DNA of 64,000 nt from Blastocatellia bacterium (GCA_963765495.1 CAVXWP010000009.1:809240-873239); one strand, 5' to 3'. Counted from the first letter of the stretch, positions 18,973 to 48,456 are shown. Notes: generated by a model from the letters alone, not told the origin. Numbers and translations: made by a program.

Positions 18973-20469
18973 ATGAATATCTTACTTTTATCAATGCCCG
19001 ACTCATTCGAGCACATGCCGACAGTCGCCATAAGAATGCCCAACGGAGCGCTCGCCTCACTTGCCGGCAACATAGACGCGCATCATAGAGTCGCAATCGC
19101 AGACCTCGTGCTTGCCCAACGAAATGTGCGCGAGACCGTCGAGCGGCTTGTGCGCGAGACCCGACCCGACCTCCTCGGGCTTTCGATCATGTCGTTTCAG
19201 CGCAAGACCGCCAAAAAGATCATAGATTTTGTGCGCTCGATCAGTCCCGGTCTGCGCGTAGTCGTGGGCGGGTATGATCCGAGCCTTGCCGCCGAAGCCT
19301 ATACCGATCAGGGTTCCGGCGAGGTCGATTTTATAGTGCGCGGCGAAGGCGAGATCACCTTTCGCGAGCTTTTGCGCGCTGTGGAAAATGAAAGCGGGTT
19401 TGATCATATTCAGGGTCTCTCATACAGAAGCGGCGACCGCTTTTATCACAACCCGGAACGCGCGGTAAGTTCACTTGAAGGCGCGGAGATTCGCCTGCCC
19501 AACCGCGCATCTCGCGTGCTTCATGGCTACACTATGCTTGGCCGACAGGTCGATGTGATAGAGACCTCGCGTGGCTGCACCTTTGATTGCAGTTTCTGTT
19601 CGATCATCGAGATGCACGGACGTAATTTTCACACCTATTCTTTTGATCGCGTAATCGCCGACATACGCGATGCCTGTGCGCACGGCGCGCGCTCGATCTT
19701 TATCGTGGACGACAACATAACGCTCAACGTGCGGAGGTTCGAAGCCCTTTGCGAGGCGATCATCGAAGCCGGGCTGAATCACATCGATTACATCGTGCAG
19801 GGGATGACTTCGGCAATCGCCAACCACGGCGAAACACTCGCCCCGTTGATGCGAAAAGCAGGATTTCGATATGTCTTTCTCGGCATCGAAAACATACTCG
19901 AAGATGATCTTCAGTTCCTGCGCGCAAGCTCGAAAAACAGCAAACGCGAGCAGGGGCACAGGACGGGCAACGCGACCTTGCAGGCCATAGAGTATCTCCA
20001 CCGGAACAAGATGTATGTCGTCGGCGGGTTGATAGTGGGAAACCCGGACGACACCCGCCAGTCCATCGAAGCCAATCTGAAATTCGCCCGGCGCTATATT
20101 GACTGGCCTTACATCCAGCACCCGACGCCTTATCCCCGCACTCCTATGACGAAAGAGTTTCGAGACCGTGGATTGATAATCAATGAAAACCTTGAAGAGT
20201 ACGACGGGACCACGGCAGTTGTAAAAAGCGAGCACCTGTCGGCCGAAGAGATCGAATTCATGCGGTGGAAAGAGGATCGCTGGATGAAGGTGCGCCACAT
20301 GCCCGTAGCGCTCTTTCACGACCCGGTCTTTGTCTTAAAGAACGCGCCGCAGATGTTTGCGCATACTTTCCGTGGCAGTACGATCAAGACCGTGATCGGG
20401 CTTGAAGACGAGCGCAAGGCATTCGAGCGATACCGCGCCCTCAGAAAAGCCGAGAGAGCCTATATCTGA
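18973..20469 (+). CDS. B12-binding domain radical SAM protein (class B radical SAM methyltransferase-like)
   Basis: N-terminal cobalamin-binding-like region, CTFDCSFCS (Cx3Cx2C) radical SAM motif, about 500 aa. Confidence 0.75.
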   Translation: MNILLLSMPDSFEHMPTVAIRMPNGALASLAGNIDAHHRVAIADLVLAQRNVRETVERLVRETRPDLLGLSIMSFQRKTAKKIIDFVRSISPGLRVVVGGYDPSLAAEAYTDQGSGEVDFIVRGEGEITFRELLRAVENESGFDHIQGLSYRSGDRFYHNPERAVSSLEGAEIRLPNRASRVLHGYTMLGRQVDVIETSRGCTFDCSFCSIIEMHGRNFHTYSFDRVIADIRDACAHGARSIFIVDDNITLNVRRFEALCEAIIEAGLNHIDYIVQGMTSAIANHGETLAPLMRKAGFRYVFLGIENILEDDLQFLRASSKNSKREQGHRTGNATLQAIEYLHRNKMYVVGGLIVGNPDDTRQSIEANLKFARRYIDWPYIQHPTPYPRTPMTKEFRDRGLIINENLEEYDGTTAVVKSEHLSAEEIEFMRWKEDRWMKVRHMPVALFHDPVFVLKNAPQMFAHTFRGSTIKTVIGLEDERKAFERYRALRKAERAYI

Positions 20470-20485
20470 CAGAGATCAAACCGGG

Positions 20486-21754
20486 CTATTTTATCTTGAT
20501 TACCGAGATTGTGAGGTCGTCTTCGGGGCCGCCCGCCTCCGATGAGAATTCCCGCACCGCGTTTACGACAGCCTGGCAGATTTCGTGTGCGCGGAGGCTG
20601 GCTGTTTCACGCACGACCCGTTCCAGCCCCTCGATCTCGAATGCCTCGTCGCGTTCGTTTGCGGCTTCGGTCACGCCGTCGGTGTAGAGCACGAGTATGT
20701 CGCCCGACTGGAAGTCTACGACCGATTCCGAGTAATGGGAGTCTTCAAATATGCCGAGCGGGAGGCCCCCGTCTTTAAGCAGCTTGCTTGTCGAGTCGGC
20801 GCGCAGGAGCAGGGGCGGATTGTGACCCGCGTTGATGTAGAGCAGTCGTCTGTTGTCCGGGTCTATCAACCCATAAAAAGTAGTGATATAGCGATCACCT
20901 GCCGTAGTCTCGTAGATCAGGCGATTCACCCGCGCCATCACAACTCGCATGGCCAGTTCGTTCATCACAGTGGCGTGAATGTATGCCCGGAAAGTGACCA
21001 TTATGAGCGCCGCCGCAAGCCCCTTGCCCGAAACATCCGATATCAATATGCCGAGTCTCTCCGAGACCGAATCTATAAAATCGAAATAATCGCCCCCGAC
21101 TTCGCGCACAGGAATCGTGGTGCCCGCGATGTCGAATCCTTTTATGAGTGGAAAGGCACGCGGCAGCAGGCTTTCGACCACCTTGCGCGCAAGCTCGATC
21201 TCGCTTTCGGCCCGCCTTTGCCGCATAACCTGACGATAAAGCATGGTGTGGTCGATTGCAGAAGCGGCCAGAGAAGCAAACATCGTGAGGAGTTCAAGGT
21301 CGCGCTCGTCATAGCAATTGATCCTGTCGGATTCCAGATTTATAGCGCCTATGACTTTACCGTCGGCCCGAATGATGGGGGCGGCGATCTCGGAAAGAGT
21401 TTCGGCGCGGGCCTTGACGTAGCGCTTGTCACGCTTTACATCGTTTACCACCTCTCCCGTGCCGTGCTCTATCACCCAGCGGATTATGCCGCTCGGAGAG
21501 GCGAGATAATCTTCGACTATGGCCGAGGGGGGATAGCCGCGAGCCTTCAATTCATAAACGGCCTCGGTCTTTGAATCCACGAGGCAGACGACCGCCGCCG
21601 AATACTCCATCAACTCTTCCAGAGAATCGAATATAGTTTCGGTCACTTCATCGATATCGGGCGAGGAACTGATTTTTCGCACCGCCTGAATGAGCGTTTC
21701 GATCCTCTTTTCGGTCACAGCCATCTGTGTAGTCTCAACTCTGCCTGCGGTCAT
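20486..21754 (-). CDS. GAF domain + PP2C-type serine phosphatase (RsbU/SpoIIE family)
   Basis: C-terminal PP2C motifs (GDYFDF, DVSGKG, LYTDGVTEA) and N-terminal GAF-like region. Confidence 0.8.
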   Translation of the reverse strand: MTAGRVETTQMAVTEKRIETLIQAVRKISSSPDIDEVTETIFDSLEELMEYSAAVVCLVDSKTEAVYELKARGYPPSAIVEDYLASPSGIIRWVIEHGTGEVVNDVKRDKRYVKARAETLSEIAAPIIRADGKVIGAINLESDRINCYDERDLELLTMFASLAASAIDHTMLYRQVMRQRRAESEIELARKVVESLLPRAFPLIKGFDIAGTTIPVREVGGDYFDFIDSVSERLGILISDVSGKGLAAALIMVTFRAYIHATVMNELAMRVVMARVNRLIYETTAGDRYITTFYGLIDPDNRRLLYINAGHNPPLLLRADSTSKLLKDGGLPLGIFEDSHYSESVVDFQSGDILVLYTDGVTEAANERDEAFEIEGLERVVRETASLRAHEICQAVVNAVREFSSEAGGPEDDLTISVIKIK

Positions 21755-23139: not shown

Positions 23140-24543
23140 CTCACCTGCTTTTAACCATCCGTAGCGAGAAGTCCCCTGCTCTTTAGGCGGGGGATGAATC
23201 GCGGCGGTACTAACTGAGATTTGGTACTGCTATGAACGTGTTTCGTGCTATAATGATGACGGCTCAAATCAGCACTTGCGATGCCAATCTGAGCCTCACC
23301 GATGCCGACTATAGGAGAGTCAACATGGCTGATGGAATCATAACACAAAGAGCCTACCGCTACAGAATCTATCCCTCTCACGCTCAAATCACACGACTTG
23401 AACAGACGCTTTCCTACTGTGCGGAGTTGTATAATGCGGGCCTTCAAGAAAGAAGAGACGCTTACCGGATAGCTCGAAAGTGTATCTCTTACAAAGAGCA
23501 GCAAAACCAGCTTCCAGAAATCAAAGCTGTTCGACCTGAGTGGAACACGGTGCATTCTCAGGTATTGCAGGATGTTCTCAAGCGACTTGATAAGGCTTTC
23601 GATGCGTTCTTTCGCAGAGTCAGAAGCAAGCAAGGCAAAGCCGGATTTCCGAGATTCCGCGCCCGCTCTCGCTATAATAGCTTCACCTATCCTCAGTCTG
23701 GATTTGCAATAGAGAATGGCAAGCTTAGACTTTCTAAAATCGGCCGCATCAAAATCAAACTCCATCGCCCGATTGAGGGTGCTATCAAAGGATTGACTAT
23801 CACGCGCAGTTCCACGGGCAAATGGTTTGCCTGCTTCACAGTAGAACAGGTAATCAATCCAGAGCCGCATAAGGGCAAGGCTGTAGGCGTGGATGTAGGT
23901 ATAAAGACCTACTGCACATTGTCTGACGGAACTGAGATTGATAACCCGAAGTTCTTTAGAGTGGAGGAAAAGAACCTTGCCAAAGCACAGCGCAAACTCT
24001 CTACCTTCAATAAAGGTTCTGATGAGTATCGGAAGCAGCGCAAGGTAGTAGCTCGCATTCATGAGCGAATCACAAATAAGCGAAAAGACTTCGCGCATCA
24101 ACTCTCTCATTACTTCGCTATTACTTATGCACTGATAATCTTTGAGAAGTTGAATATCAGAGGCATGGTGAAAAACCATTGCCTCGCCAAATCCATTCAG
24201 GATGCCAGTTGGAATCAGACTATTCAGTATACGACCTACAAGGCAGCATGGGCCGGGGGTATGTCGCTGAGAGTCAATCCAGCAGGCACAAGTAATACGA
24301 CTCACTGCTGCAAGGCGAAGGTTGATATTACGTTGGCAGATCGTGTAATCCATTGTCCTCAGTGTCATCGAACTATAGGCAGAGATGAAAATGCATCTCT
24401 GAATATTTTGAGTCTGGGATTACAGACTCTTGGCCTTAGCGCCATAGAAGCCGCTTCCTTTGGGTAGCGGAATAGTCACTCAACCGCAAATAGGGATAAA
24501 ATTGGCCTCGGAATGGAAACCGGAAGGCGGGTCCGGAACCTTT
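23140..24543 (+). mobile_element. IS200/IS605-family element of the single-ORF (IS1341-like, tnpB only) type; ends approximate
   Basis: Contains tnpB only, no tnpA; bounded by an upstream terminator and the start of the next gene; exact LE/RE not determined. Confidence 0.55.
23325..24467 (+). CDS. tnpB: TnpB (OrfB) RNA-guided endonuclease-like transposon protein, IS605 family
   Basis: N-terminus RAYRYRIYPSHAQITRLEQTLSYCAELYN (OrfB_IS605), RuvC-I GVDVGIKTYCTLSDG, C-terminal zinc ribbon CPQCHRTIGRDENASLNI; RBS AGGAGAG. Confidence 0.9.
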   Translation: MADGIITQRAYRYRIYPSHAQITRLEQTLSYCAELYNAGLQERRDAYRIARKCISYKEQQNQLPEIKAVRPEWNTVHSQVLQDVLKRLDKAFDAFFRRVRSKQGKAGFPRFRARSRYNSFTYPQSGFAIENGKLRLSKIGRIKIKLHRPIEGAIKGLTITRSSTGKWFACFTVEQVINPEPHKGKAVGVDVGIKTYCTLSDGTEIDNPKFFRVEEKNLAKAQRKLSTFNKGSDEYRKQRKVVARIHERITNKRKDFAHQLSHYFAITYALIIFEKLNIRGMVKNHCLAKSIQDASWNQTIQYTTYKAAWAGGMSLRVNPAGTSNTTHCCKAKVDITLADRVIHCPQCHRTIGRDENASLNILSLGLQTLGLSAIEAASFG

Positions 24544-25023: not shown

Positions 25024-25116
25024 GTGATATGTGATACGTGATACGTGATTCGTTGTCTTGATTGCCATCTCCGGTCACGCATCACGAATCACGTATCACT
25101 TACCCTGTATCACGAA
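25024..25116. repeat. Heptamer-repeat hairpin element: arms (GTGATAY)4 and TCACGCA-TCACGAA-TCACGTA-TCAC
   Basis: Inverted tandem heptamers starting at the stop codon of the NYN gene. Confidence 0.7.
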
Positions 25117-25129
25117 GGAGGTAATAGGC

Positions 25130-26791
25130 ATGGCTTACGAACGGCCTCGAGCTTACCGCGATGTAAGGGTAGGCGAATTGCTCACGCTGCTTGCGCGAGA
25201 CTACCCGCAGAACGAGGCGCTGATTTATCCCGACCGCGAGCTTAGATACGATTTCAGTCAGCTTGAATGGTTCGCCCGCCAGATAGCCAGAGGGCTGTTG
25301 AGCATCGGTGTAGAGCGGGGCGACCGCGTGGCCCTGTGGGCGCATAACATCCCGGAATGGGTCGTCTTGCAATTCGCCCTCGCAAAGATCGGAGCCATAC
25401 TCGTTACCGTAAATACCAGCCTCCGCGCTGCGGAAATCGAATACCTGCTCAGGCAATCGGAGACCAGCACGCTCATCACCGTGGCGGGCTTTCGCGATCT
25501 TGATTATGTAAAGACCATCTACGAGATCATCCCCGAATTGCGCGGGGCGAAAGAGGGCGCGCTCCATTCAATGAAGTTCCCCTATCTTCGCAACATAATT
25601 TATATCGGCGATGAGCATCCGGGTGGGATGCTCCGTTACGACTCTTTGCTCGACCGTTCGGGGCGGGTGAGCGATGATCAGCTAAACGCCCACTCGGATA
25701 TGCAGGACCTCGACGACGTGATAAACATGCAGTACACCTCGGGCACAACGGGCTTTCCAAAAGGGGTTATGCTGACGCATCGCAACATAGTAAACAACGG
25801 CTACTGGCTGGCCGAAGGGCTTGCGCTCACTTCAAGCGACAGGTTGTGCGTGCCCGTGCCTTTCTTTCATTGCTTCGGCTGTGTGATCGGAGTGCTGGGT
25901 GCTTACACTCACGCGGCTGCGATGATTCCGCTTGAATACTTCGACCCGTTGCGAGTGCTTCAATACGTGGAACGCGAAAGATGTACAGCCCTTTACGGGG
26001 TGCCGACCATGTTCATAGCCGAGCTTGAACAACTCGATTATCACTGTTTCGATATGTCGAGTTTGAGGACGGGCATAATGGCGGGCTCGCTGTGTCCCGA
26101 ATCGCTCATGCGAAAAGTGATGGAAAAGATGAACCTGACCGAGATGACCATCGCCTATGGATTGACCGAAGCCTCGCCCGGAATAACGCACACGCCGCGA
26201 GATGACAGCATCGAGTTGCGTACGCAGACCGTAGGCCGCGTGATGCCCGAAATGGAAGTCAAAATCATCGACCCGGCCACGGGCGAAGAATGCCTGCCCG
26301 GCAAATCCGGTGAGTTGTGCTGTCGCGGTTACAACGTGATGAAGGGGTATTACAACAACAAACAGGCCACAAGTGAGGCGATTGATGAAGAAGGATGGCT
26401 GCACACGGGCGATCAGGCCAGTATGGATGAGCGGGGGTATGTCAGGATCACCGGGCGTATAAAAGACCTGATAATTCGCGGCGGCGAAAACATCGCGCCA
26501 AAAGAGATTGAAGACCTGTTGCGCACGCATCCGAAGATCGCCGATGCCTATGTTTATGGTGTGCCCGATGAACGCTACGGCGAAGAGGTCGCCGTGGCTG
26601 TCCGCCTAAAGCCCGGCGAGACGGCAACCCCGGATGAAATCCGCGCATATTGCGAAGGCCGCATAGCCAAATTCAAATATCCGCGCCACATCCGTTTCGT
26701 CGAATCATTCCCCATGACGGCTTCTGGCAAGGTGCAGAAGTTCAAGCTGAGAGAAATGCATGCTCGGGGGCCGGGGGCCGGGGACCAGTAG
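25130..26791 (+). CDS. AMP-dependent synthetase/ligase (acyl-CoA synthetase family)
   Basis: [15 protein letters not shown]-binding motif, [13 protein letters not shown], and C-terminal lysine motif [10 protein letters not shown]; RBS GAAGGAGG. Confidence 0.9.
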
Positions 26792-26947
26792 GTGGGGGCC
26801 GGGAAGCATAAGATTACTTTTCGCTTGCTAACTCCAATAGCAAATCAGCAAGCGACATTATAAAGTACGCTTAGCCTTGATTGGTAAACCGGCCCCTGAT
26901 CCCCGGCCCCCGGCCCCTACCTTATGGCCCCTGACCCCCGGCCCCCA
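26766..26947. repeat. GGGGCC/GGCCCC-rich palindromic element: left arm GGGGGCCGGGGGCCGGGGA inside the 3' end of the synthetase ORF; right arms GGCCCCTGATCCCCGGCCCCCGGCCCC and GGCCCCTGACCCCCGGCCCCC; nested 8-bp hairpin CGCTTGCT/AGCAAGCG in the loop
   Basis: Read directly; same repeat family occurs in-frame at 47736-47902. Confidence 0.7.
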
Positions 26948-26949
26948 GT

Positions 26950-28488
26950 TCAGTGCTTGATCTTTTCCCAGTATGTCTGCAAATCGAAAGCGGGACTGGT
27001 CTCCGGCGTGTGGCACGCCGCACACGTGGATTTCATGTCGCTTATGTGGCCGTACCCTTTGGCAGGTTTTGCTATGTGCTCGCCTGCCGGGCCGTGGCAC
27101 GCCTCGCATTGTACGTGTTGAAGTTGAGGCAGATTGTTCTCGCTTATCAAAGTTCCTTTTTGCAGCCCGCTCGCGTGACAGTTCAGGCAACTCGGTTCAA
27201 ACTCCGCAGGCTTGAAGACGACAGGCCCCGTCGCCCGCGCGTGCAAAGTGTTTGCCCACTTTACATATTCCTGGGTGTGACACTGAGAACACGCCGAGGC
27301 TGAGGCATAGACATCTCCGTGCTCTGCGCTTTGGGGCGAATCCGCGGAATGTCTGCTTCGCTGCATTCTGGTGCTCGCCTGCCAGTCGAGCAATATCTTT
27401 TTTGATGTCTTTCTGAAATTGATTTCCGCCTCATTAGCCTGATTGATAGGCCCGACCGCGCCCGGCGCATCGGGTACCAGATCGTCGAGCACGATCTGAC
27501 GGTCTTTGATTGAAAATCTGCCCCGCTCGTCTCGGTAAAATCTAAGCTCGCCGAGCGCCCTGGTTTCATAAGGCGTAAAGGCTACGAGGGTCTGCCCCGC
27601 GTCATAGGAACGAGTGATTATATCGCCGTTGCCCGCTATGATGACATCGATGTCGGGGACCTGCCGGGCTATGTTGAGCGCCTCGGTCGTCGAGACGTGC
27701 GCGAGCGCCACAAGGAAATCAGATTTCTGTTTTGCCTCTGCTACAGACTTGCGGGCGGCTTCTACGGGGTCGATGATCTTGAGACCGCGCGGCGGTGCGG
27801 GCTGCGCGCCTGTAAGACCCAGAAAGGCCACCCGCAGAGGTTTCGTCAAAGATGATTCCTGGCTCTGGCGGACGGGGATTTCTCGAACGACGAACGGCTG
27901 AAGAAGGGCGCGGTCACCCGAATCGCTTGCGATGTTGGCCGACACGAGGCGGTTGAATATCGAATAAGTGTCGCTTGGATGAGCGGCATCTGTTTGTTTG
28001 AGCGCATCGGCTATATAGGCCAGGTCTTTCGCCGCTATGTTTACGGCGTCGAACCCGACCTGTTCATAGGCCTTGAGTATCATCTCGTTCATCACGGCAG
28101 CATCGGCCCGGAGATAGCCGTGAGTGTTGCGTCTGTCGGAGAGGAAGTTGCCGGTATCAACGACGAGCGCCGGTATCTTATCGAATTTTTCTCGGAATAC
28201 CTTAGTATAGCCGACACGCCGTGCCAGCCCCCCTACGCGGGGCCCCTTTCAACCACAGGTTCCGAGTTCGCCGTGAGTATCGCCTCCGAAATGAATGACG
28301 AAGGCGGCCCCGTCGTCCGCCCCGAGCCTTTCGGCAAGCGGCACACCCGTGGCGACGAGTTCGGTCTTACGCTCGGCAGGTTCCTGCGAGGCGCTTGTCT
28401 GCTGGAAGGGCAGGTAAGAGCATAAAAAGGCAGCGATCAGCGTGATAGCCGATAACTTGATGCGTTTGATTAGAGTTTTATGATGCAT
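26950..28488 (-). CDS. Secreted metallophosphatase/5'-nucleotidase-like domain fused to a tetraheme cytochrome c domain; reading frame contains one in-frame TGA (28249-28251)
   Basis: The two ORFs 28249-28575 and 26950-28095 are in the same frame, separated only by the TGA. Upstream part has a signal peptide and GDTHG motif; downstream part has four CxxCH motifs (CSQCH, CLNCH, CEACH, CAACH). Confidence 0.6.
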
Positions 28489-28780
28489 TGAGTTCAACCC
28501 GTTCGGTAAAAATCCTTTTGTTACGGTGAAAAAAGTCGAGTAAAAGACTCTAATTGATCCGGCATCGCTCCGCAAGCATTCGCGCCCGTCCCGGCCTGTT
28601 CCAATTTCTCTTGCTTACATTTTGGGAAACAGAACTATCCTGAGATGCTCTCAGTTTGTTTGCAACAACCCTGGAATTTGTATTGATCGGTTTGTTCTTT
28701 TGTAGTACGCTCCCGACAGATTTGGTGAAAGCCCCCGCTCGGCCCATTGGCCGGGTGGGGTTTTCTTTTTGGGGGAACGC

Positions 28781-29815
28781 ATGAATCAGGAAATTCTAAA
28801 TCAGTTCCTTGCTGTGGCCGTCAAGAATCGCGCCTCAGATGTGCACCTCCAGGTAGGCGAACATCCACTGCTGCGCATAAACGGTCTTTTGACCCAGGTA
28901 AAGTACCACCCGCTCACGTCCGATGATATGCGTTCCATAGTCTCTGCGCTCGCCGGGCGTGAGAGATTCGAAAGCGACTTTCACAGAAGGAATGAATTCG
29001 ACACCTCCTACGAAATCGCGGAAATCGGACGCTTTCGCGCAAATATCTTCAGACAGCGAGGCCATTACGGCGCGGTGCTGCGCGTAGTCCCGCTCGAAAT
29101 AAAGACTTGTGAAGAACTCCACCTGCCGCGCGTCTATGAAAAGATCGCGCACCTCAGTCGCGGGCTTGTGCTGGTTTCGGGCGCTACCGGGAACGGCAAA
29201 TCCACCAGCGTAGCCGCCATCGTCGAACACATAAATCGCTCGCGAAAGGCTCACATCGTGACCATCGAAGAGCCTATAGAATTTCTCTTCAAGAATAAGA
29301 AATCTGTCATCTCGCAAAGAGAAATAGGCACAGACACCGACAGCTTTGCAGACGCGCTGCGCTCGGCAATGCGCCAGGACCCGGATGTGATCTATGTAGG
29401 CGAAATCCGCGACCGGGAAACCATCGACATCGCGCTCAAGGCCGCTGAAATAGGGCATCTCGTGATCTCTACGATTCACACGCCCGACGCGCAACGGACC
29501 ATAGGGCGTTTGATCAGTTTCTTTCCCGCCGAAGAGCATATGGCCGTGCGCGAGCGGCTGGCTCAAAACCTGATGGCCATTACAAGCCTGCGGTTGCTGG
29601 CAAGCTGCAACGGCAGCGGGCGACTCCCCGCCGTAGAAGTCATGCTTGTCACGCGCAGCATCGAAGAGTGTATTCGCAACCCTGAAAAGACCGGAGAGAT
29701 TCAGCAGTATATTCAGAAAGGAACCGAGCTTGGCATGCAGAGCTTTGATCAACATCTGGTCGAGTTGTTGCAGCAAGGCAAGATTTCTATAGATACGGCT
29801 AAACTCGCCGGGTAG
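28781..29815 (+). CDS. pilT: Type IV pilus retraction ATPase PilT/PilU family
   Basis: Walker A GATGNGKSTS, Asp box and His box, about 345 aa. Confidence 0.85.
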   Translation: MNQEILNQFLAVAVKNRASDVHLQVGEHPLLRINGLLTQVKYHPLTSDDMRSIVSALAGRERFESDFHRRNEFDTSYEIAEIGRFRANIFRQRGHYGAVLRVVPLEIKTCEELHLPRVYEKIAHLSRGLVLVSGATGNGKSTSVAAIVEHINRSRKAHIVTIEEPIEFLFKNKKSVISQREIGTDTDSFADALRSAMRQDPDVIYVGEIRDRETIDIALKAAEIGHLVISTIHTPDAQRTIGRLISFFPAEEHMAVRERLAQNLMAITSLRLLASCNGSGRLPAVEVMLVTRSIEECIRNPEKTGEIQQYIQKGTELGMQSFDQHLVELLQQGKISIDTAKLAG

Positions 29816-31592: not shown

Positions 31593-32602
31593 TAGATGAT
31601 CCGAGGAATAAGAAGGACTTTGGTAAACTATTCGCATGACAATCGAACAAATCAACAATCTCAAACCTGCAAGACTCCGCGCCTTGACCCGCATGACGAC
31701 AAACGCCCTTCAACAATTGTTGTCTACTACCGTGCCGGTCTTGGTTCATCTCCGTCAACAGGCCAAACTTCTTCGCCCTGATCGCAAACGCGCTCTCGGT
31801 GGCGGTAGAAAACCCAAACTCACTCCTTCTCAGGAGGTCTTGCTCGTTCTCATCTACCTGCGTCACAACCTCGCTCACGCGCGTTGTCGCAGCCTTGTTT
31901 GGTGTTAGCGCCGACACCTCCGAGAATCTCTTTCACGAGATTGTCCCCTTGCTCAGAGAACTCTTTCCCTCCAATCGCTTTGAGGCACAGAAGAGGTTTC
32001 GAGGTCAGGAACCGAGCCTCAAAATCCAAGAGATTGACCGAATTCTCATCGACAGTTTTGAGACGCCAATACCCCGCCCCTCCAATTATGAACGTCAAAA
32101 ACGGGTATATTCTGGTAAAAAGAAATGCCACACGCTCAAGAGCCAAGTAGAGAGTGATCGAAAGGGAGAAGTGCTGGGTATCAGAGGAGGGCATCGCGGG
32201 CCAGCATCGGATAAGCGAGTATATGAAGCCAGTGGAGTGGGGGAGAAATATCGAGAAGCGAGCAAGCAAGGGGATTTGGGATATCAGGGCACAGAGGGAA
32301 TCGAAGTACCACACAAGAAGCCGAAAGGAGGTGAGCTAAGTGATGATGAGCGAGAGGAGAATCGAGCGAAGGCGAGTGTGAGGGTACAGGTAGAACACGG
32401 CATAAGAAGAGTGAAAGGATTCAAGATCATGAGAGAGAAGTATCGGCTGGCAATGGGGTTGTTCCCGATGGTAGCGTCGGCAGTAGTCGGATTGGTACAT
32501 CTCAACCGAATCCTTATGTAAGCAGACTGCAAAGGGTGAAGTGTGCCCATCTGACGGTGGGTCGCCCAAGCACGCTTCATTTTTTATTTATCGGATCATC
32601 TA
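31593..32602 (+). mobile_element. IS5-family (DDE_Tnp_4 / PIF-Harbinger-like) insertion sequence with 12-bp terminal inverted repeats TAGATGATCCGA
   Basis: IRs at 31593-31604 and 32591-32602; internal transposase ORFs. Confidence 0.65.
31636..32521 (+). pseudogene. IS5-family DDE_Tnp_4 transposase split by a +1 frameshift near 31880 (HTH part 31636-31908, DDE part 31799-32521)
   Basis: N-terminal HTH_Tnp_4-like LGGGRKPKLTPSQEVLLVLIYLRHNL and C-terminal DDE_Tnp_4-like YSGKKKCHTLKSQVESD are in different frames. Confidence 0.6.
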
Positions 32603-46885: not shown

Positions 46886-48456
46886 TGACAAGTCATTCGA
46901 AGCTCTTGCCAGGCGGTGTCGAGCGAGAAATGCTGACCTTCATAATATTCAAGGTCTCGCTTGTCGCTCTCGGCATTTTGAGCCTTGCGCTTTATCACAT
47001 CAGCGCGCCTCTTTACCGCTATTCGCCGGGCAACGTAACCTACATCGCCACCTTTATCGGCCAATTCGCGTTTTACCTTCTGGCCTGTTACGCGGTTACT
47101 CGCTTTCGCGCAACAGACGCGGCCCGCAATTTATCATCGGTCACGATTTTCACGCTGATGATAGTGCTGATGTTTGCGGCGGCTTTTCGCGCAAGGCTTG
47201 TGACCGAGCCGCCCTTCCTGTCGAGCGATGTTTACCGCTATATCTGGGACGGTCGCGTGCAGGCATCGGGCATCAACCCTTACCGTTACATTCCGGCAGA
47301 AGAGGAACTGGCTCCTCTGCGAGACGACCTGATCTATGCCAACATAAATCGCAAGGATTTCGCGCATACGATCTATCCACCCGTAGCGCAGGCGATATTT
47401 TTGGCCTCATACCTTGTACGGCCATCGAGCGTGACGACATTCAAAGTAACGATGAGTTTGTTTGACGCGCTTGCGGCGCTGGCCATAATGCTTGCGCTTG
47501 CGCGGGCAAGGATGGACCCCGCGCTTGTCATCTTTTTCGCATGGCATCCACTGGTAATCTGGGAAGGCGCGCACAGCGGTCATATCGAATCGGCAAGCAT
47601 GGCGTTTCTGGCGCTCGCGCTTCTCTGTTGGACCTATGAAAAACGCGCTCTTACCGGCGTAGCCCTCGCGCTCGCAACCCTGGTCAAACTCTATCCGATC
47701 ATGCTGCTGCCGGTGTTTGCCGCGGCGAAATTGCCGCAGGGGCCAGCTTCGCAGGGGCCAGCTTCGCAGGAGCCAGGGGCCGGGGGCCAGCTTCGCAGGG
47801 GCCGGGGGCCGGGGGCCGGGGGGCTGGGGGCTGGGGATGAGAAGAAAGCTACAGGCAAGAAAATTGACCTGATAAACCTACTGGCCCCCGGCCCCCGGCC
47901 CCTGCTCCATCTGGCAGCTGCATTTATCCTCACGATCATAATCGCGTATCTGCCTTATCTGAGCGTAGGCGCGAAAGTGATAGGATACCTGCCGGGATAT
48001 TTGAAAGAAGAAGGATATATGCACGCCGGGAATCGCTATTTTCTGCTGAGCCTCGTGCGATGGTTTGTCCCTTTGCCGACTGCCGCATACTCTGTTTTTT
48101 CGGCCCTCGCTCTACTGGGGTTCGGCGTGTGGCAGCTATTGAAACCGAAACGCAACGTTACGGATGTCGCTCGCGGAGCCGCTCAGTTGATAGGGCTTTT
48201 CATGATACTCAGCAGCCCTCGCTATAGCTGGTATGTAGCGTGGATAATTCCATTTCTCTGCTTTGCGCCACGGGCGGCCTGGCTATATCTGACCGGCGCT
48301 TCGGTCTTGCTTTATCTGCTCTGGTTCACGACCGATTATCCCAATATCCCTTTATGGCTGGGCGCGGCGATTTATGTGCCGGCCCTCGCGCTGTTTATCA
48401 GGGATAGGGTCAAGATAAAAGTTGTGAAAGAGAAGGCAAGCGCGTCACAGGCTTGA
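46885..48456 (+). CDS. Polytopic membrane protein, DUF2029 / GT87-like glycosyltransferase family, with a low-complexity loop insertion encoded by a GGGGCC-type repeat
   Basis: Many TM helices; loop PQGPASQGPASQEPGAGGQLRRGRGPGAGGLGAGD...LLAPGPRP is encoded by repeat DNA at 47736-47902. Confidence 0.6.
   Translation: MTSHSKLLPGGVEREMLTFIIFKVSLVALGILSLALYHISAPLYRYSPGNVTYIATFIGQFAFYLLACYAVTRFRATDAARNLSSVTIFTLMIVLMFAAAFRARLVTEPPFLSSDVYRYIWDGRVQASGINPYRYIPAEEELAPLRDDLIYANINRKDFAHTIYPPVAQAIFLASYLVRPSSVTTFKVTMSLFDALAALAIMLALARARMDPALVIFFAWHPLVIWEGAHSGHIESASMAFLALALLCWTYEKRALTGVALALATLVKLYPIMLLPVFAAAKLPQGPASQGPASQEPGAGGQLRRGRGPGAGGLGAGDEKKATGKKIDLINLLAPGPRPLLHLAAAFILTIIIAYLPYLSVGAKVIGYLPGYLKEEGYMHAGNRYFLLSLVRWFVPLPTAAYSVFSALALLGFGVWQLLKPKRNVTDVARGAAQLIGLFMILSSPRYSWYVAWIIPFLCFAPRAAWLYLTGASVLLYLLWFTTDYPNIPLWLGAAIYVPALALFIRDRVKIKVVKEKASASQA
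47736..47902. repeat. GGGGCC/GGCCCC palindromic element (15-bp tandem CAGGGGCCAGCTTCG x3, then GGGGCCGGGGGCCGGGGGCC... / GGCCCCCGGCCCCCGGCCCC arms) embedded in-frame in the DUF2029 gene
   Basis: Read directly; same family as 26766-26947. Confidence 0.7.

What the first reader, a model, noticed from the sequence alone, without database searches (positions are those of the whole stretch)
26950..28488. In-frame TGA inside a nucleotidase-like / tetraheme cytochrome c fusion gene: nonsense pseudogene or selenocysteine recoding?
The two minus-strand ORFs 28249-28575 (signal peptide, GDTHG metallophosphatase motif) and 26950-28095 (rest of a nucleotidase-like domain plus four CxxCH haem motifs) are in the same frame, separated by a single TGA at 28249-28251. 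The context is ...GELGTCG-TGA-KGPRVGGLARR... A Cys lies two residues upstream of the UGA (a C-x-U arrangement). A GC-rich hairpin (GGCCCC-GCGUAGG-GGGGCU) begins 4 nt downstream, loosely like a bacterial SECIS element. The nucleotidase-like domain has AAKD where the catalytic GNHE would be, so it may be non-catalytic. The combination of phosphoesterase fold and multihaem cytochrome is itself unusual.
Basis: partly seen in the sequence, partly recalled or inferred. Interest (0 to 1): 0.55.

Follow-up and report, generated by a model that had tools for sequence, protein, structure and literature searches.

The report
Selenocysteine codon in UshA-like cytochrome gene
The in-frame TGA is very probably a selenocysteine codon in a divergent soil-Acidobacteria member of an already catalogued selenoprotein family, which joins a nucleotidase-like domain to a four-haem cytochrome, so it is neither a broken gene nor a new kind of system.

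Summary
One minus-strand gene (28488..26950, 512 codons) is interrupted by a single TGA at 28251..28249, in the context GDTHGELGTCG-U-KGPRVGGLARR.

It is not a pseudogene. The same codon is TGA in 61 related loci, including all 53 soil-metagenome loci that hold the site, and TGC/TGT (Cys) in 10 others. The 32 codons upstream of the TGA are under purifying selection (pN/pS 0.37). An independent assembly also carries the TGA. TGA is also this gene's own stop codon, so the genome has not reassigned it.

Two conserved hairpins follow the UGA, and both show compensatory changes. The second one (GCUGGCAC-GGC-GUGUCGGC, loop 28 nt after the UGA) fits the published bacterial SECIS model.

The protein's best match is NCBIfam NF041198, "UshA-like (seleno)protein" (E 1e-66). 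That profile covers both the nucleotidase-like domain and the cytochrome domain, so the fusion is the known architecture of the family. The score (225.6 bits) is below the curated cutoff (275), and public annotation truncates the gene.

The phosphoesterase metal site is degenerate. I infer a periplasmic Cys-x-Sec redox function fed by four haems, but this is untested. Sec machinery in this genome could not be checked.

The parts
26950..28488 (-). Complete selenoprotein gene: 512 codons including U80, with its own TGA stop at 26950-26952.
   Evidence: The N-terminus aligns with full-length Cys orthologs. Public annotation (P0001, 380 aa, which matches the 26950..28095 ORF in length and query coverage) is truncated.
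28390..28488 (-). Predicted Sec-type signal peptide (MHHKTLIKRIKLSAITLIAAFLCSYLPFQQTSA|SQ), about residues 1-33.
   Evidence: Read from the sequence. Equivalent basic and hydrophobic N-termini occur in orthologs. The AF2 model of ortholog P0003 has a low-confidence N-terminal helix at residues 2-17. No signal-peptide predictor was available.
28249..28257 (-). C78-G79-U80 motif. The Sec codon is TGA at 28251..28249.
   Evidence: the aligned codon is TGA in 61 other loci and TGC/TGT in 10.
28229..28243 (-). Hairpin 1 (CCCC-GCGUA-GGGG and alternative registers). Its loop starts about 10 nt after the UGA.
   Evidence: Covariation at alignment columns 11-21 is CG 28 / GC 8 / AU 2.
28209..28229 (-). 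Hairpin 2 (GGCUGGCAC-GGC-GUGUCGGCU), the best bSECIS candidate. It has an 8-9 bp stem and a 3-nt loop GGC that starts 28 nt after the UGA. It overlaps the codons for GGLARRVG.
   Evidence: combined MFE of both hairpins -20.4 kcal/mol; core pairs are 94-100% paired; columns 30-36 are AU 43 / GC 4 / CG 3 at two wobble positions. The criteria come from PMC13188914.
27454..28314 (-). UshA / 5'-nucleotidase-like metallophosphoesterase-fold domain with degenerate metal-site motifs (about residues 59-345).
   Evidence: NF041198 profile positions 20-267. Foldseek top hits for the ortholog model are 5'-nucleotidases, CD73, CpdB and SoxB. hhalign against E. coli UshA.
26953..27312 (-). C-terminal tetrahaem cytochrome c554-like domain. 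CxxCH motifs lie at 27277-27291, 27175-27189, 27094-27108 and 27010-27024.
   Evidence: PF13435, E 5.7e-11. NF041198 profile positions 393-517. PDB cytochrome c554 1bvb, E 2.3e-5. Cys and His of all four motifs are invariant.

Best explanation
The TGA at 28251..28249 encodes selenocysteine (U80) in one 512-residue exported protein. That protein is a divergent member, from the soil Acidobacteriota (Blastocatellia-like) clade, of the known 'UshA-like (seleno)protein' family with a CxU motif.

How recoding works (inferred from the standard bacterial mechanism): the mRNA immediately 3' of the UGA folds into two conserved hairpins. The second has a 3-nt GGC loop 28 nt from the UGA and fits the bacterial SECIS consensus. 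It would recruit SelB-GTP-Sec-tRNASec to the ribosome.

What the protein is (shown): a signal peptide, then a 5'-nucleotidase-fold domain whose dimetal phosphoesterase ligands are largely lost, with the Cys-Gly-Sec triad in the loop just after vestigial motif I, then a four-haem cytochrome c554-like domain.

What it does (inferred, about 0.35 confidence): it is a periplasmic oxidoreductase rather than a nucleotidase. The Cys78/Sec80 pair would cycle through a selenenylsulfide or attack a chalcogen-type substrate such as polysulfide, thiosulfate-like or selenite-like species. The four c-type haems would carry electrons to or from it.
For: - Frame and motif.
- Sec/Cys pairing: nine full-length orthologs carry Cys at the aligned position. 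In DNA loci the codon is TGA in 61 and TGC/TGT in 10. All 53 soil-metagenome loci that hold the site have TGA.
- Upstream piece is translated: pN/pS is 0.37 for the 32 codons upstream of the TGA across 54 orthologs. Synonymous divergence is lower just downstream, pS 0.57 against 0.73.
- Not an assembly artefact: the Logan assembly L081 carries the same TGA.
- TGA is a normal stop here: the gene itself ends at TGA, where all homologs end with KIKH.
- Hairpins: 86% of cells are paired in the proposed register against 33-48% in slid registers. Compensatory changes occur at wobble positions.
- Cys-form controls: the older Cys forms L144 and L145 have lost the hairpins. L143 (TGT) keeps the same 45 nt downstream of the codon as L093, with both hairpins, so it looks like a recent Sec-to-Cys switch.
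- Hairpin 2 meets the bSECIS criteria quoted in PMC13188914.
- Family: NF041198, E 1e-66, with both domains matching the profile. The family is listed in PMC2398784, PMC9312934 and PMC13188914.
- Fold. Degenerate metal site: with motif I variants.
- Lineage: Acidobacteria are recorded as having selenoproteins (PMC1794560).
Against: - selA, selB, selC and selD were not found in the 64-kb window or in any fetched locus. The rest of the genome could not be searched, so Sec-decoding capacity of this organism is inferred only.
- The folding energy of the window sequence alone is not exceptional for its composition (z = -1.45; 17 of 200 shuffles fold as well).
- Hairpin 2 overlaps the conserved GGLARR codons, so part of its conservation is a coding constraint.
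- The NF041198 score (225.6 bits) is below the curated cutoff of 275.
- No experiment exists for any member of this family. No conserved operon partner points to a substrate.
Confidence: 0.88

Rival explanations
1. The gene is a nonsense pseudogene: a recent TGA mutation inactivated a Cys-containing gene.
For: Cys (TGC/TGT) orthologs exist, and TGA is one substitution away from them. Public annotation treats the gene as truncated.
Against: The TGA sits at the identical codon in 61 other loci from different genomes and metagenomes. Both sides of it are under purifying selection. The downstream hairpins are conserved with covariation.
Confidence: 0.02
2. The TGA is a sequencing or assembly error.
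For: None specific. The source appears to be a metagenome-assembled contig.
Against: A separate Logan assembly of run ERR11718635 has the same base. Dozens of orthologs share the TGA.
Confidence: 0.01
3. There are two separate genes, as currently annotated: a small upstream ORF, and a cytochrome gene that starts at an internal GTG or ATG after the TGA.
For: Gene callers predict products of 370-430 aa, several starting at 'MGGLARR'.
Against: The downstream product would lack a signal peptide, which a c-type cytochrome needs for periplasmic haem attachment (established knowledge). Cys-form orthologs are single continuous proteins of 478-534 aa. The NF041198 profile spans the junction. The called start codons differ between orthologs.
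Confidence: 0.03
4. The UGA is decoded as something other than Sec. Candidates are Cys delivered by a SelB-like factor with a tRNASec-like tRNACys(UCA), or suppression by an acidobacterial allo-tRNA, or a reassigned genetic code.
For: PMC5389517 describes selC* tRNACys(UCA) in anaerobes and possible suppressor allo-tRNAs in Acidobacteria.
Against: selC* was not reported in Acidobacteria in that paper. TGA is the gene's own terminator, so the code is not reassigned. The site is a classic Sec/Cys position in a catalogued selenoprotein family and has a SECIS-type hairpin.
Confidence: 0.04
5. Sec is inserted, but the protein is a working 5'-nucleotidase or phosphoesterase, or a SoxB-like thiosulfohydrolase, with an attached cytochrome. 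In this reading the CxU triad is a metal ligand rather than a redox couple.
For: The fold is that of UshA, CD73, CpdB and SoxB. The window protein itself retains D-x-H and the motif IV His. There are weak SoxB HMM hits in relatives.
Against: GNHE is AAKD here and SSHD in the clade consensus. The motif V GH is GN or GT. Motif I is GDTRG, GSVQG, GGVAG and so on in other members. No 5'-nucleotidase C-terminal substrate-binding domain is detected.
Confidence: 0.08

Closest known systems
UshA-like (seleno)protein family (NCBIfam NF041198 'UshA_like_PCGU'; 'COG0737 UshA-like, CxU' in Zhang & Gladyshev 2008, PMC2398784)
   Same: It is the best HMM hit (E 1e-66). Both share a Cys-Gly-Sec/Cys triad right after vestigial motif I, followed by GGLARR. 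The profile matches both the N-terminal nucleotidase-like domain (positions 20-267) and the C-terminal multihaem domain (positions 393-517). Both have mixed Sec and Cys forms.
   Different: The score of 225.6 bits is below the curated equivalog cutoff of 275, and the other four full-length relatives tested (two from the Blastocatellia-like clade, two from other phyla) score 202-270. The residue before Cys is T here (T, P, V, A, E or D in the clade) rather than the P of 'PCGU'. The middle of the profile (about positions 270-390) is poorly matched. This gene and its clade relatives are annotated truncated (about 370-430 aa); those that carry an NCBI name are called 'multiheme c-type cytochrome'.
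E. coli UshA, human CD73 and other 5'-nucleotidases (calcineurin-like metallophosphoesterase plus 5'-nucleotidase C domain)
   Same: The N-terminal fold is the same (Foldseek E about 1e-17 to 5e-19, 330-360 aligned columns). The order of motifs I-V is recognisable by hhalign.
   Different: Identity is only 15-22%. The metal and catalytic residues are largely replaced (GNHE to AAKD, GH to GN). The C-terminal nucleotide-binding domain is replaced by a tetrahaem cytochrome. UshA has nothing corresponding to the CGU insertion.
SoxB thiosulfohydrolase (TIGR04486; PDB 2wdc)
   Same: It belongs to the same superfamily and fold, is periplasmic, and acts on a sulfur substrate. Weak HMM hits occur in family members.
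   Different: SoxB keeps a dimanganese site and has no haems and no Sec. Here the similarity is only E 0.0036.
Cytochrome c554 (Nitrosomonas europaea, PF13435, PDB 1bvb)
   Same: It is a four-haem domain whose CxxCH spacing matches by sequence.
   Different: Here it is a C-terminal module of a larger selenoprotein, not a free electron carrier of the ammonia-oxidation chain.
MccSep / ExtKL multihaem cytochrome c selenoprotein (NF040886; PDB 9wt8; PMC13510729)
   Same: It is a periplasmic protein that combines c-type haems with one catalytic Sec. It was shown to reduce polysulfide and selenite. It is a functional analogy for a haem-fed Sec redox site.
   Different: It is a different family (E 0.0067 and 0.25, haem region only). 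It has five haems, no nucleotidase-fold domain, and its Sec is in a different context (DGUP).

Membership tests
Bacterial selenoprotein gene (Sec-UGA recoding) | An in-frame UGA with coding sequence conserved on both sides in one frame | tested here: met
   pN/pS is 0.37 upstream and 0.48 downstream across 54 orthologs.
Bacterial selenoprotein gene (Sec-UGA recoding) | Cys-containing homologs with Cys aligned to the UGA (a Sec/Cys pair) | tested here: met
   Nine full-length proteins have CGC at the site. Ten loci have TGC or TGT.
Bacterial selenoprotein gene (Sec-UGA recoding) | UGA-containing orthologs in other organisms | tested here: met
   61 other loci have TGA, including all 53 metagenome loci with the site, plus Eisenbacteria, a MAG labelled Deltaproteobacteria (L016) and an unclassified MAG (L009).
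Bacterial selenoprotein gene (Sec-UGA recoding) | A downstream bSECIS: loop of 3-9 nt, stem of 4-16 bp, G in the first two loop positions, 16-37 nt from the UGA, MFE <= -7.5 kcal/mol (PMC13188914) | tested here: met
   Hairpin 2 has loop GGC, an 8-9 bp stem and 28-nt spacing. It is conserved with compensatory changes. The MFE of hairpin 2 alone was not computed; the two hairpins together give -20.4 kcal/mol. bSECISearch itself was not available. Hairpin 1 fails the spacing rule (about 10 nt).
Bacterial selenoprotein gene (Sec-UGA recoding) | selA, selB, selC (tRNASec) and selD in the same genome | not testable with these tools
   None were found in the 64-kb window or the fetched loci. The rest of the 910-kb contig and genome could not be read. 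At the lineage level, Acidobacteria are reported to have selenoproteins (PMC1794560).
Bacterial selenoprotein gene (Sec-UGA recoding) | Selenium demonstrated in the protein | not testable with these tools
   This needs 75Se labelling or mass spectrometry.
NF041198 UshA-like (seleno)protein (PCGU) | HMM score at or above the curated cutoff (275 bits) | tested here: not met
   225.6 bits, E 1e-66. The other four full-length relatives tested (two clade members, two from other phyla) score 202-270. It is the best hit by a wide margin; the next family is at E 1e-9.
NF041198 UshA-like (seleno)protein (PCGU) | A Cys-Gly-Sec/Cys motif after vestigial motif I (family name PCGU; CxU in the reviews) | tested here: met
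   TCGU in this gene. C-G-[U/C] is invariant across all loci, while the preceding residue varies (P, T, V, A, E, D).
NF041198 UshA-like (seleno)protein (PCGU) | Architecture: an UshA-like N-domain plus a C-terminal multihaem domain | tested here: met
   Profile positions 20-267 and 393-517 of 519 are both matched.
5'-nucleotidase / UshA (catalytic metallophosphoesterase) | Conserved dimetal and catalytic motifs D-x-H, GD, GNHE, H and GH | tested here: not met
   hhalign against E. coli UshA: D-x-H and the motif IV His are kept in this protein, but GNHE is AAKD and GH is GN, and UshA's motif II Asp (D84) aligns to Asn here. Motif I is not conserved across the family.
5'-nucleotidase / UshA (catalytic metallophosphoesterase) | A C-terminal 5'-nucleotidase substrate-binding domain | tested here: not met
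   There is no Pfam hit other than cytochrome families. The C-terminus is a tetrahaem domain.
Cytochrome c554 family (PF13435) | A Pfam hit above the gathering score, with four CxxCH motifs | tested here: met
   43.6 bits against a gathering score of 20.8. The four CxxCH motifs are invariant in orthologs.

The most novel reading that the evidence does not exclude
The soil Acidobacteriota (Blastocatellia-like) clade is a distinct subfamily that is not curated and is systematically mis-annotated. Its members are almost always Sec forms (53 of 53 in soil metagenomes). The protein would be a new kind of periplasmic selenoenzyme in which a nucleotidase fold has lost its metal-dependent hydrolase chemistry and been repurposed as a Cys-x-Sec redox site wired to four haems, acting on a sulfur, selenium or other chalcogen substrate. 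It may use a two-hairpin SECIS. That would imply an unrecognised selenium-dependent redox process in mostly aerobic soil Acidobacteria.
Probability: 0.3. Interest if true: 0.5.

Novelty: new member of a known kind. Interest (0 to 1): 0.3.

Why it matters
The practical result is a corrected gene model. The public protein for this gene (380 aa) lacks about 130 N-terminal residues, including the signal peptide and the Cys-Gly-Sec centre. The same truncation affects dozens of related entries, some named 'multiheme c-type cytochrome'. The cause appears to be that this clade scores just under the NF041198 cutoff.

Biologically, it adds a large clade (813 clusters at 50% identity reach E <= 1e-30 with the clade profile) to a selenoprotein family for which I found no biochemical study. 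Its near-universal use of Sec in the sampled soil metagenomes suggests real selenium dependence there. It does not reveal a new mechanism of recoding or a new class of system.

Tried and rejected
- **Sec machinery.** I ran tblastn with E. coli SelA, SelB and SelD against the window and all fetched loci. The only hit was an unrelated SelD-like fragment in L037. ARAGORN found no tRNA in the window and no tRNASec in 41 related loci. This is uninformative for the genome as a whole.
- **A second selenoprotein in the window.** A scan for in-frame TGA read-through ORFs found no convincing candidate.
- **Rfam.** A scan of 27900-28700 gave nothing relevant.
- **Reaching the parent contig.** The look-up of encoding contigs returned only a 5.2-kb Logan contig, not the 910-kb contig. 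The listing of cluster members gave no accession or organism name.
- **Structure prediction of the window protein.** I modelled the Cys ortholog P0003 instead. Coordinates are not exposed, so I could not measure the distance from CGU to the haems.
- **First genome-contig scan.** The search patterns fell in the cytochrome domain, so most of the 80 loci were unrelated cytochromes. I repeated the scan on metagenomes with an alignment of the N-domain only.
- **Gene neighbourhood.** There is no conserved functional partner. An AMP-binding gene is shared with L145 only. Peptidase M1/TPR genes flank two Cys forms.
- **Folding energy alone.** It is not significant (z = -1.45), so the structural argument rests on covariation.

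Full report
**Observation.** The minus strand of 26950..28575 reads as one frame with a single internal TGA at 28251..28249. From the ATG at 28488 the product is 512 residues. It begins with a basic-then-hydrophobic N-terminus (MHHKTLIKRIKLSAITLIAAFL...TSA|SQ). The context around the TGA is ...FVIHFGGDTHGELGTCG-U80-KGPRVGGLARRVGY.... A nucleotidase-like region follows, and then four CxxCH motifs (C400, C434, C461, C489). The gene ends KIKH-TGA.

**It is not a pseudogene, an error or two genes.**
- A protein search found 231 relatives. The named ones are from Blastocatellia or Acidobacteriota.
- Most are called as proteins of 370-430 aa that cover only 73-84% of the query. Several begin at 'MGGLARR', just after the TGA position.
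- The minority called full-length (478-534 aa) carry Cys at the aligned position, in GDxHGSLxxCGCKG...GGLARR.
- At DNA level the homologous codon is TGA in 61 other loci and TGC/TGT in 10.
- All 53 soil-metagenome loci that contain the site have TGA. TGA also occurs in Eisenbacteria (L008) and in two MAGs labelled Deltaproteobacteria (L016) and uncultured bacterium (L009).
- The 32 codons upstream of the TGA have pN/pS of 0.37 against 54 orthologs, so they are translated in this frame.
- A separate Logan assembly of run ERR11718635 has the same TGA.
- TGA also terminates this very gene, where all homologs end. The genetic code is therefore standard, and the internal TGA needs a local signal.
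- A product starting after the TGA would lack the signal peptide that a c-type cytochrome needs.

**The recoding signal.** Two hairpins follow the UGA in every Sec form.
Its loop is about 10 nt from the UGA.
- Hairpin 2 is GCUGGCAC-GGC-GUGUCGGC. Its loop starts 28 nt from the UGA.
- On 51 distinct Sec-form sequences aligned without gaps, 86% of cells pair in the proposed register, against 33-48% when the partner is slid by 1-3 nt.
- Hairpin 1 has CG 28 / GC 8 / AU 2 at one pair.
- Hairpin 2 has AU 43 / GC 4 / CG 3 at a pair formed by the wobble bases of the Ala and second Arg codons of LARR. Another pair has GU 32 / AU 12 / GC 5.
- Synonymous divergence is lower downstream of the UGA than upstream (pS 0.57 against 0.73).
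- The diverged Cys forms L144 and L145 have lost both hairpins. L143 (TGT) matches the Sec form L093 over the 45 nt compared downstream of the codon, so it is a very recent Sec-to-Cys switch that still carries a fossil SECIS.
- The published bSECIS model requires a 3-9 nt loop, a 4-16 bp stem, G in the first two loop positions, 16-37 nt between UGA and loop, and MFE <= -7.5 kcal/mol (PMC13188914). Hairpin 2 meets the loop, stem, loop-G and spacing criteria (its own MFE was not computed; the two hairpins together give -20.4 kcal/mol), and hairpin 1 fails on spacing.
- The folding energy of the window sequence alone is unremarkable for such GC-rich sequence (z = -1.45), so the argument rests on covariation.
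- Rfam has no matching model.

**Which family.**
- NCBIfam's best hit is NF041198, 'UshA-like (seleno)protein' (UshA_like_PCGU), at E 1e-66 and 225.6 bits. The next family is at E 1e-9.
- Scanning the C-terminal 189 residues alone hits the same profile at positions 393-517 of 519, with 103 bits. The curated family already includes the cytochrome module, so the fusion is not a novelty of this gene.
- The family was reported as 'COG0737, UshA-like, CxU' in the GOS selenoproteome (PMC2398784). It is listed in the 2022 and 2026 reviews.
- This gene and the other four full-length relatives tested (two clade members, two from other phyla) score 202-270 bits, under the 275-bit equivalog cutoff. That probably explains why the NCBI-named clade entries are truncated products called 'multiheme c-type cytochrome'.
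- A profile of the clade finds 813 cluster representatives (50% identity) at E <= 1e-30.

**Fold and active site.**
- No solved structure is close in sequence. The best matches are an uncharacterized multihaem protein (6i5b, E 1e-5), cytochrome c554 (E 2.3e-5) and a Thermus 5'-nucleotidase at E 0.0025.
- An AF2 model of the Cys ortholog P0003 has mean pLDDT 86 and pTM 0.86. The CGC loop is the least confident part of the N-domain, with pLDDT about 74.
- The model matches the metallophosphoesterase domain of UshA, CD73, CpdB and SoxB at Foldseek E of 1e-15 to 5e-19.
- hhalign against E. coli UshA aligns GDTHG with NDHHG (motif I), AAKD with GNHE (the clade consensus is SSHD), LAHVS with ATHMG, and AGNG with GGHS.
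- The CGU triad lies in the loop right after motif I.
- Across the wider family motif I itself is not kept: GDTRG, GSVQG, GGVAG, GAIKG and GNTRG all occur.
- C-G-[U/C] is kept at every locus examined, and the GG[LIMV][AMT]R[RL] segment after it is nearly so (these two features were also part of the search pattern). In the 15-sequence clade alignment, G86, L88, R90, R91, D111, H123, N150, A184-N185 and the four haem motifs are invariant.
- In the cytochrome domain three further histidines (H416, H471, H512) are also invariant.
- The canonical dimetal hydrolase site is therefore degenerate, and the 5'-nucleotidase C-domain is absent.

**Most likely mechanism.**
- Shown: a Sec/Cys position, a conserved SECIS-type structure, an exported two-domain protein with four haem-binding motifs, and a vestigial phosphoesterase site.
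- Inferred for recoding: SelB-dependent insertion of Sec at U80, directed by hairpin 2, possibly helped by hairpin 1.
- Inferred for function: the Cys78-Gly-Sec80 triad is a redox or nucleophilic centre (a selenenylsulfide couple) that exchanges electrons with the four c-haems in the periplasm.
- The substrate is unknown. Two analogies make sulfur or selenium species the first things to test. One is superfamily kinship with SoxB. The other is MccSep, a haem-plus-Sec polysulfide/selenite reductase (PMC13510729).
- My confidence in the redox reading is about 0.35. My confidence in the Sec reading is about 0.9.

**What could not be tested.** selA, selB, selC and selD are absent from the 64-kb window and from all fetched loci. 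The remainder of the 910-kb contig could not be accessed. Acidobacteria are on record as having selenoproteins (PMC1794560). A minor rival is UGA suppression, or Cys insertion by tRNASec-like tRNAs, as described in PMC5389517. It cannot be excluded without the tRNA inventory. It is disfavoured because the selC* tRNACys genes were not reported in Acidobacteria and because this site behaves as a classic Sec/Cys position.

**Context.** The gene stands alone. A PilT/T2SSE-like ATPase gene lies divergently upstream (28769-29812). An AMP-binding acyl-CoA-synthetase-like gene lies convergently downstream (25058-26788); this neighbour is shared with the Cys-form locus L145. No neighbour is conserved across the family.

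**Verdict.** This is a real feature, correctly spotted. It is a selenocysteine codon in a divergent member of a known but biochemically uncharacterised selenoprotein family. It is a new member of a known kind and of modest interest. The main value is a corrected gene model, a documented annotation gap, and a well-supported two-hairpin region that contains the SECIS.

Noticed in passing
window 26766-26946 and 47766-47905: There is a G-rich palindromic element. Arms made of GGGGCCG-type heptad repeats (26766-26803 against 26909-26946, 84% complementary, about 105-nt spacer) fill the gap between the convergent AMP-binding gene and the selenoprotein gene. A second copy lies at 47766-47822 / 47881-47905. 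GGGGCCGGGG (up to 1 mismatch) occurs 21 times in the window against 4.7 expected. It could be a REP/MITE-like element or a bidirectional terminator.
   Followed up: partly
window 23232-24464 (+): A TnpB / IS605 OrfB-like gene (OrfB_IS605, Cas12f1-like TNB and HTH domains) lies between a FecR-domain gene and the AMP-binding gene. The related Cys-form locus L145 has FecR-NYN-AMP-binding-target without it, which suggests an insertion here.
   Followed up: no
window 31799-32518 (+): A DDE_Tnp_4 transposase gene, a second mobile-element gene within 5 kb of the selenoprotein gene.
   Followed up: no
L143 354-413 (protein P0003): This Cys-form ortholog has TGT at the Sec position, and the 45 nt compared downstream of the codon, including both hairpins, are identical to the Sec form L093. 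It is a one-nucleotide, very recent Sec-to-Cys conversion with a fossil SECIS.
   Followed up: yes
L008 4559-5746 and 5878-7260: An Eisenbacteria MAG carries two tandem paralogs, both with TGA at the CGU site. The upstream copy lacks the cytochrome domain and ends in an acidic, His-rich tail.
   Followed up: partly
L007 4513-7305; L025 4621-7044: Distant Cys-form homologs (Poribacteria and an Acidobacteriota MAG) are fused to an N-terminal extension of about 350-500 residues. In L007 it matches the Peptidase_M61 N-terminal domain. Peptidase M1/TPR genes also sit next to two Cys-form orthologs.
   Followed up: partly
protein P0002 (JGI, 500 aa): This full-length homolog lacks 13 residues, including the whole CGU loop (GDLH-GNLARR). 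It may be a real deletion variant or an assembly or gene-call artefact.
   Followed up: no
window 18973-21754: A B12-binding radical SAM gene (18973-20466) and a GAF-SpoIIE (PP2C) phosphatase gene (20489-21754) lie upstream of the FecR-domain gene. No link to the finding is apparent.
   Followed up: no
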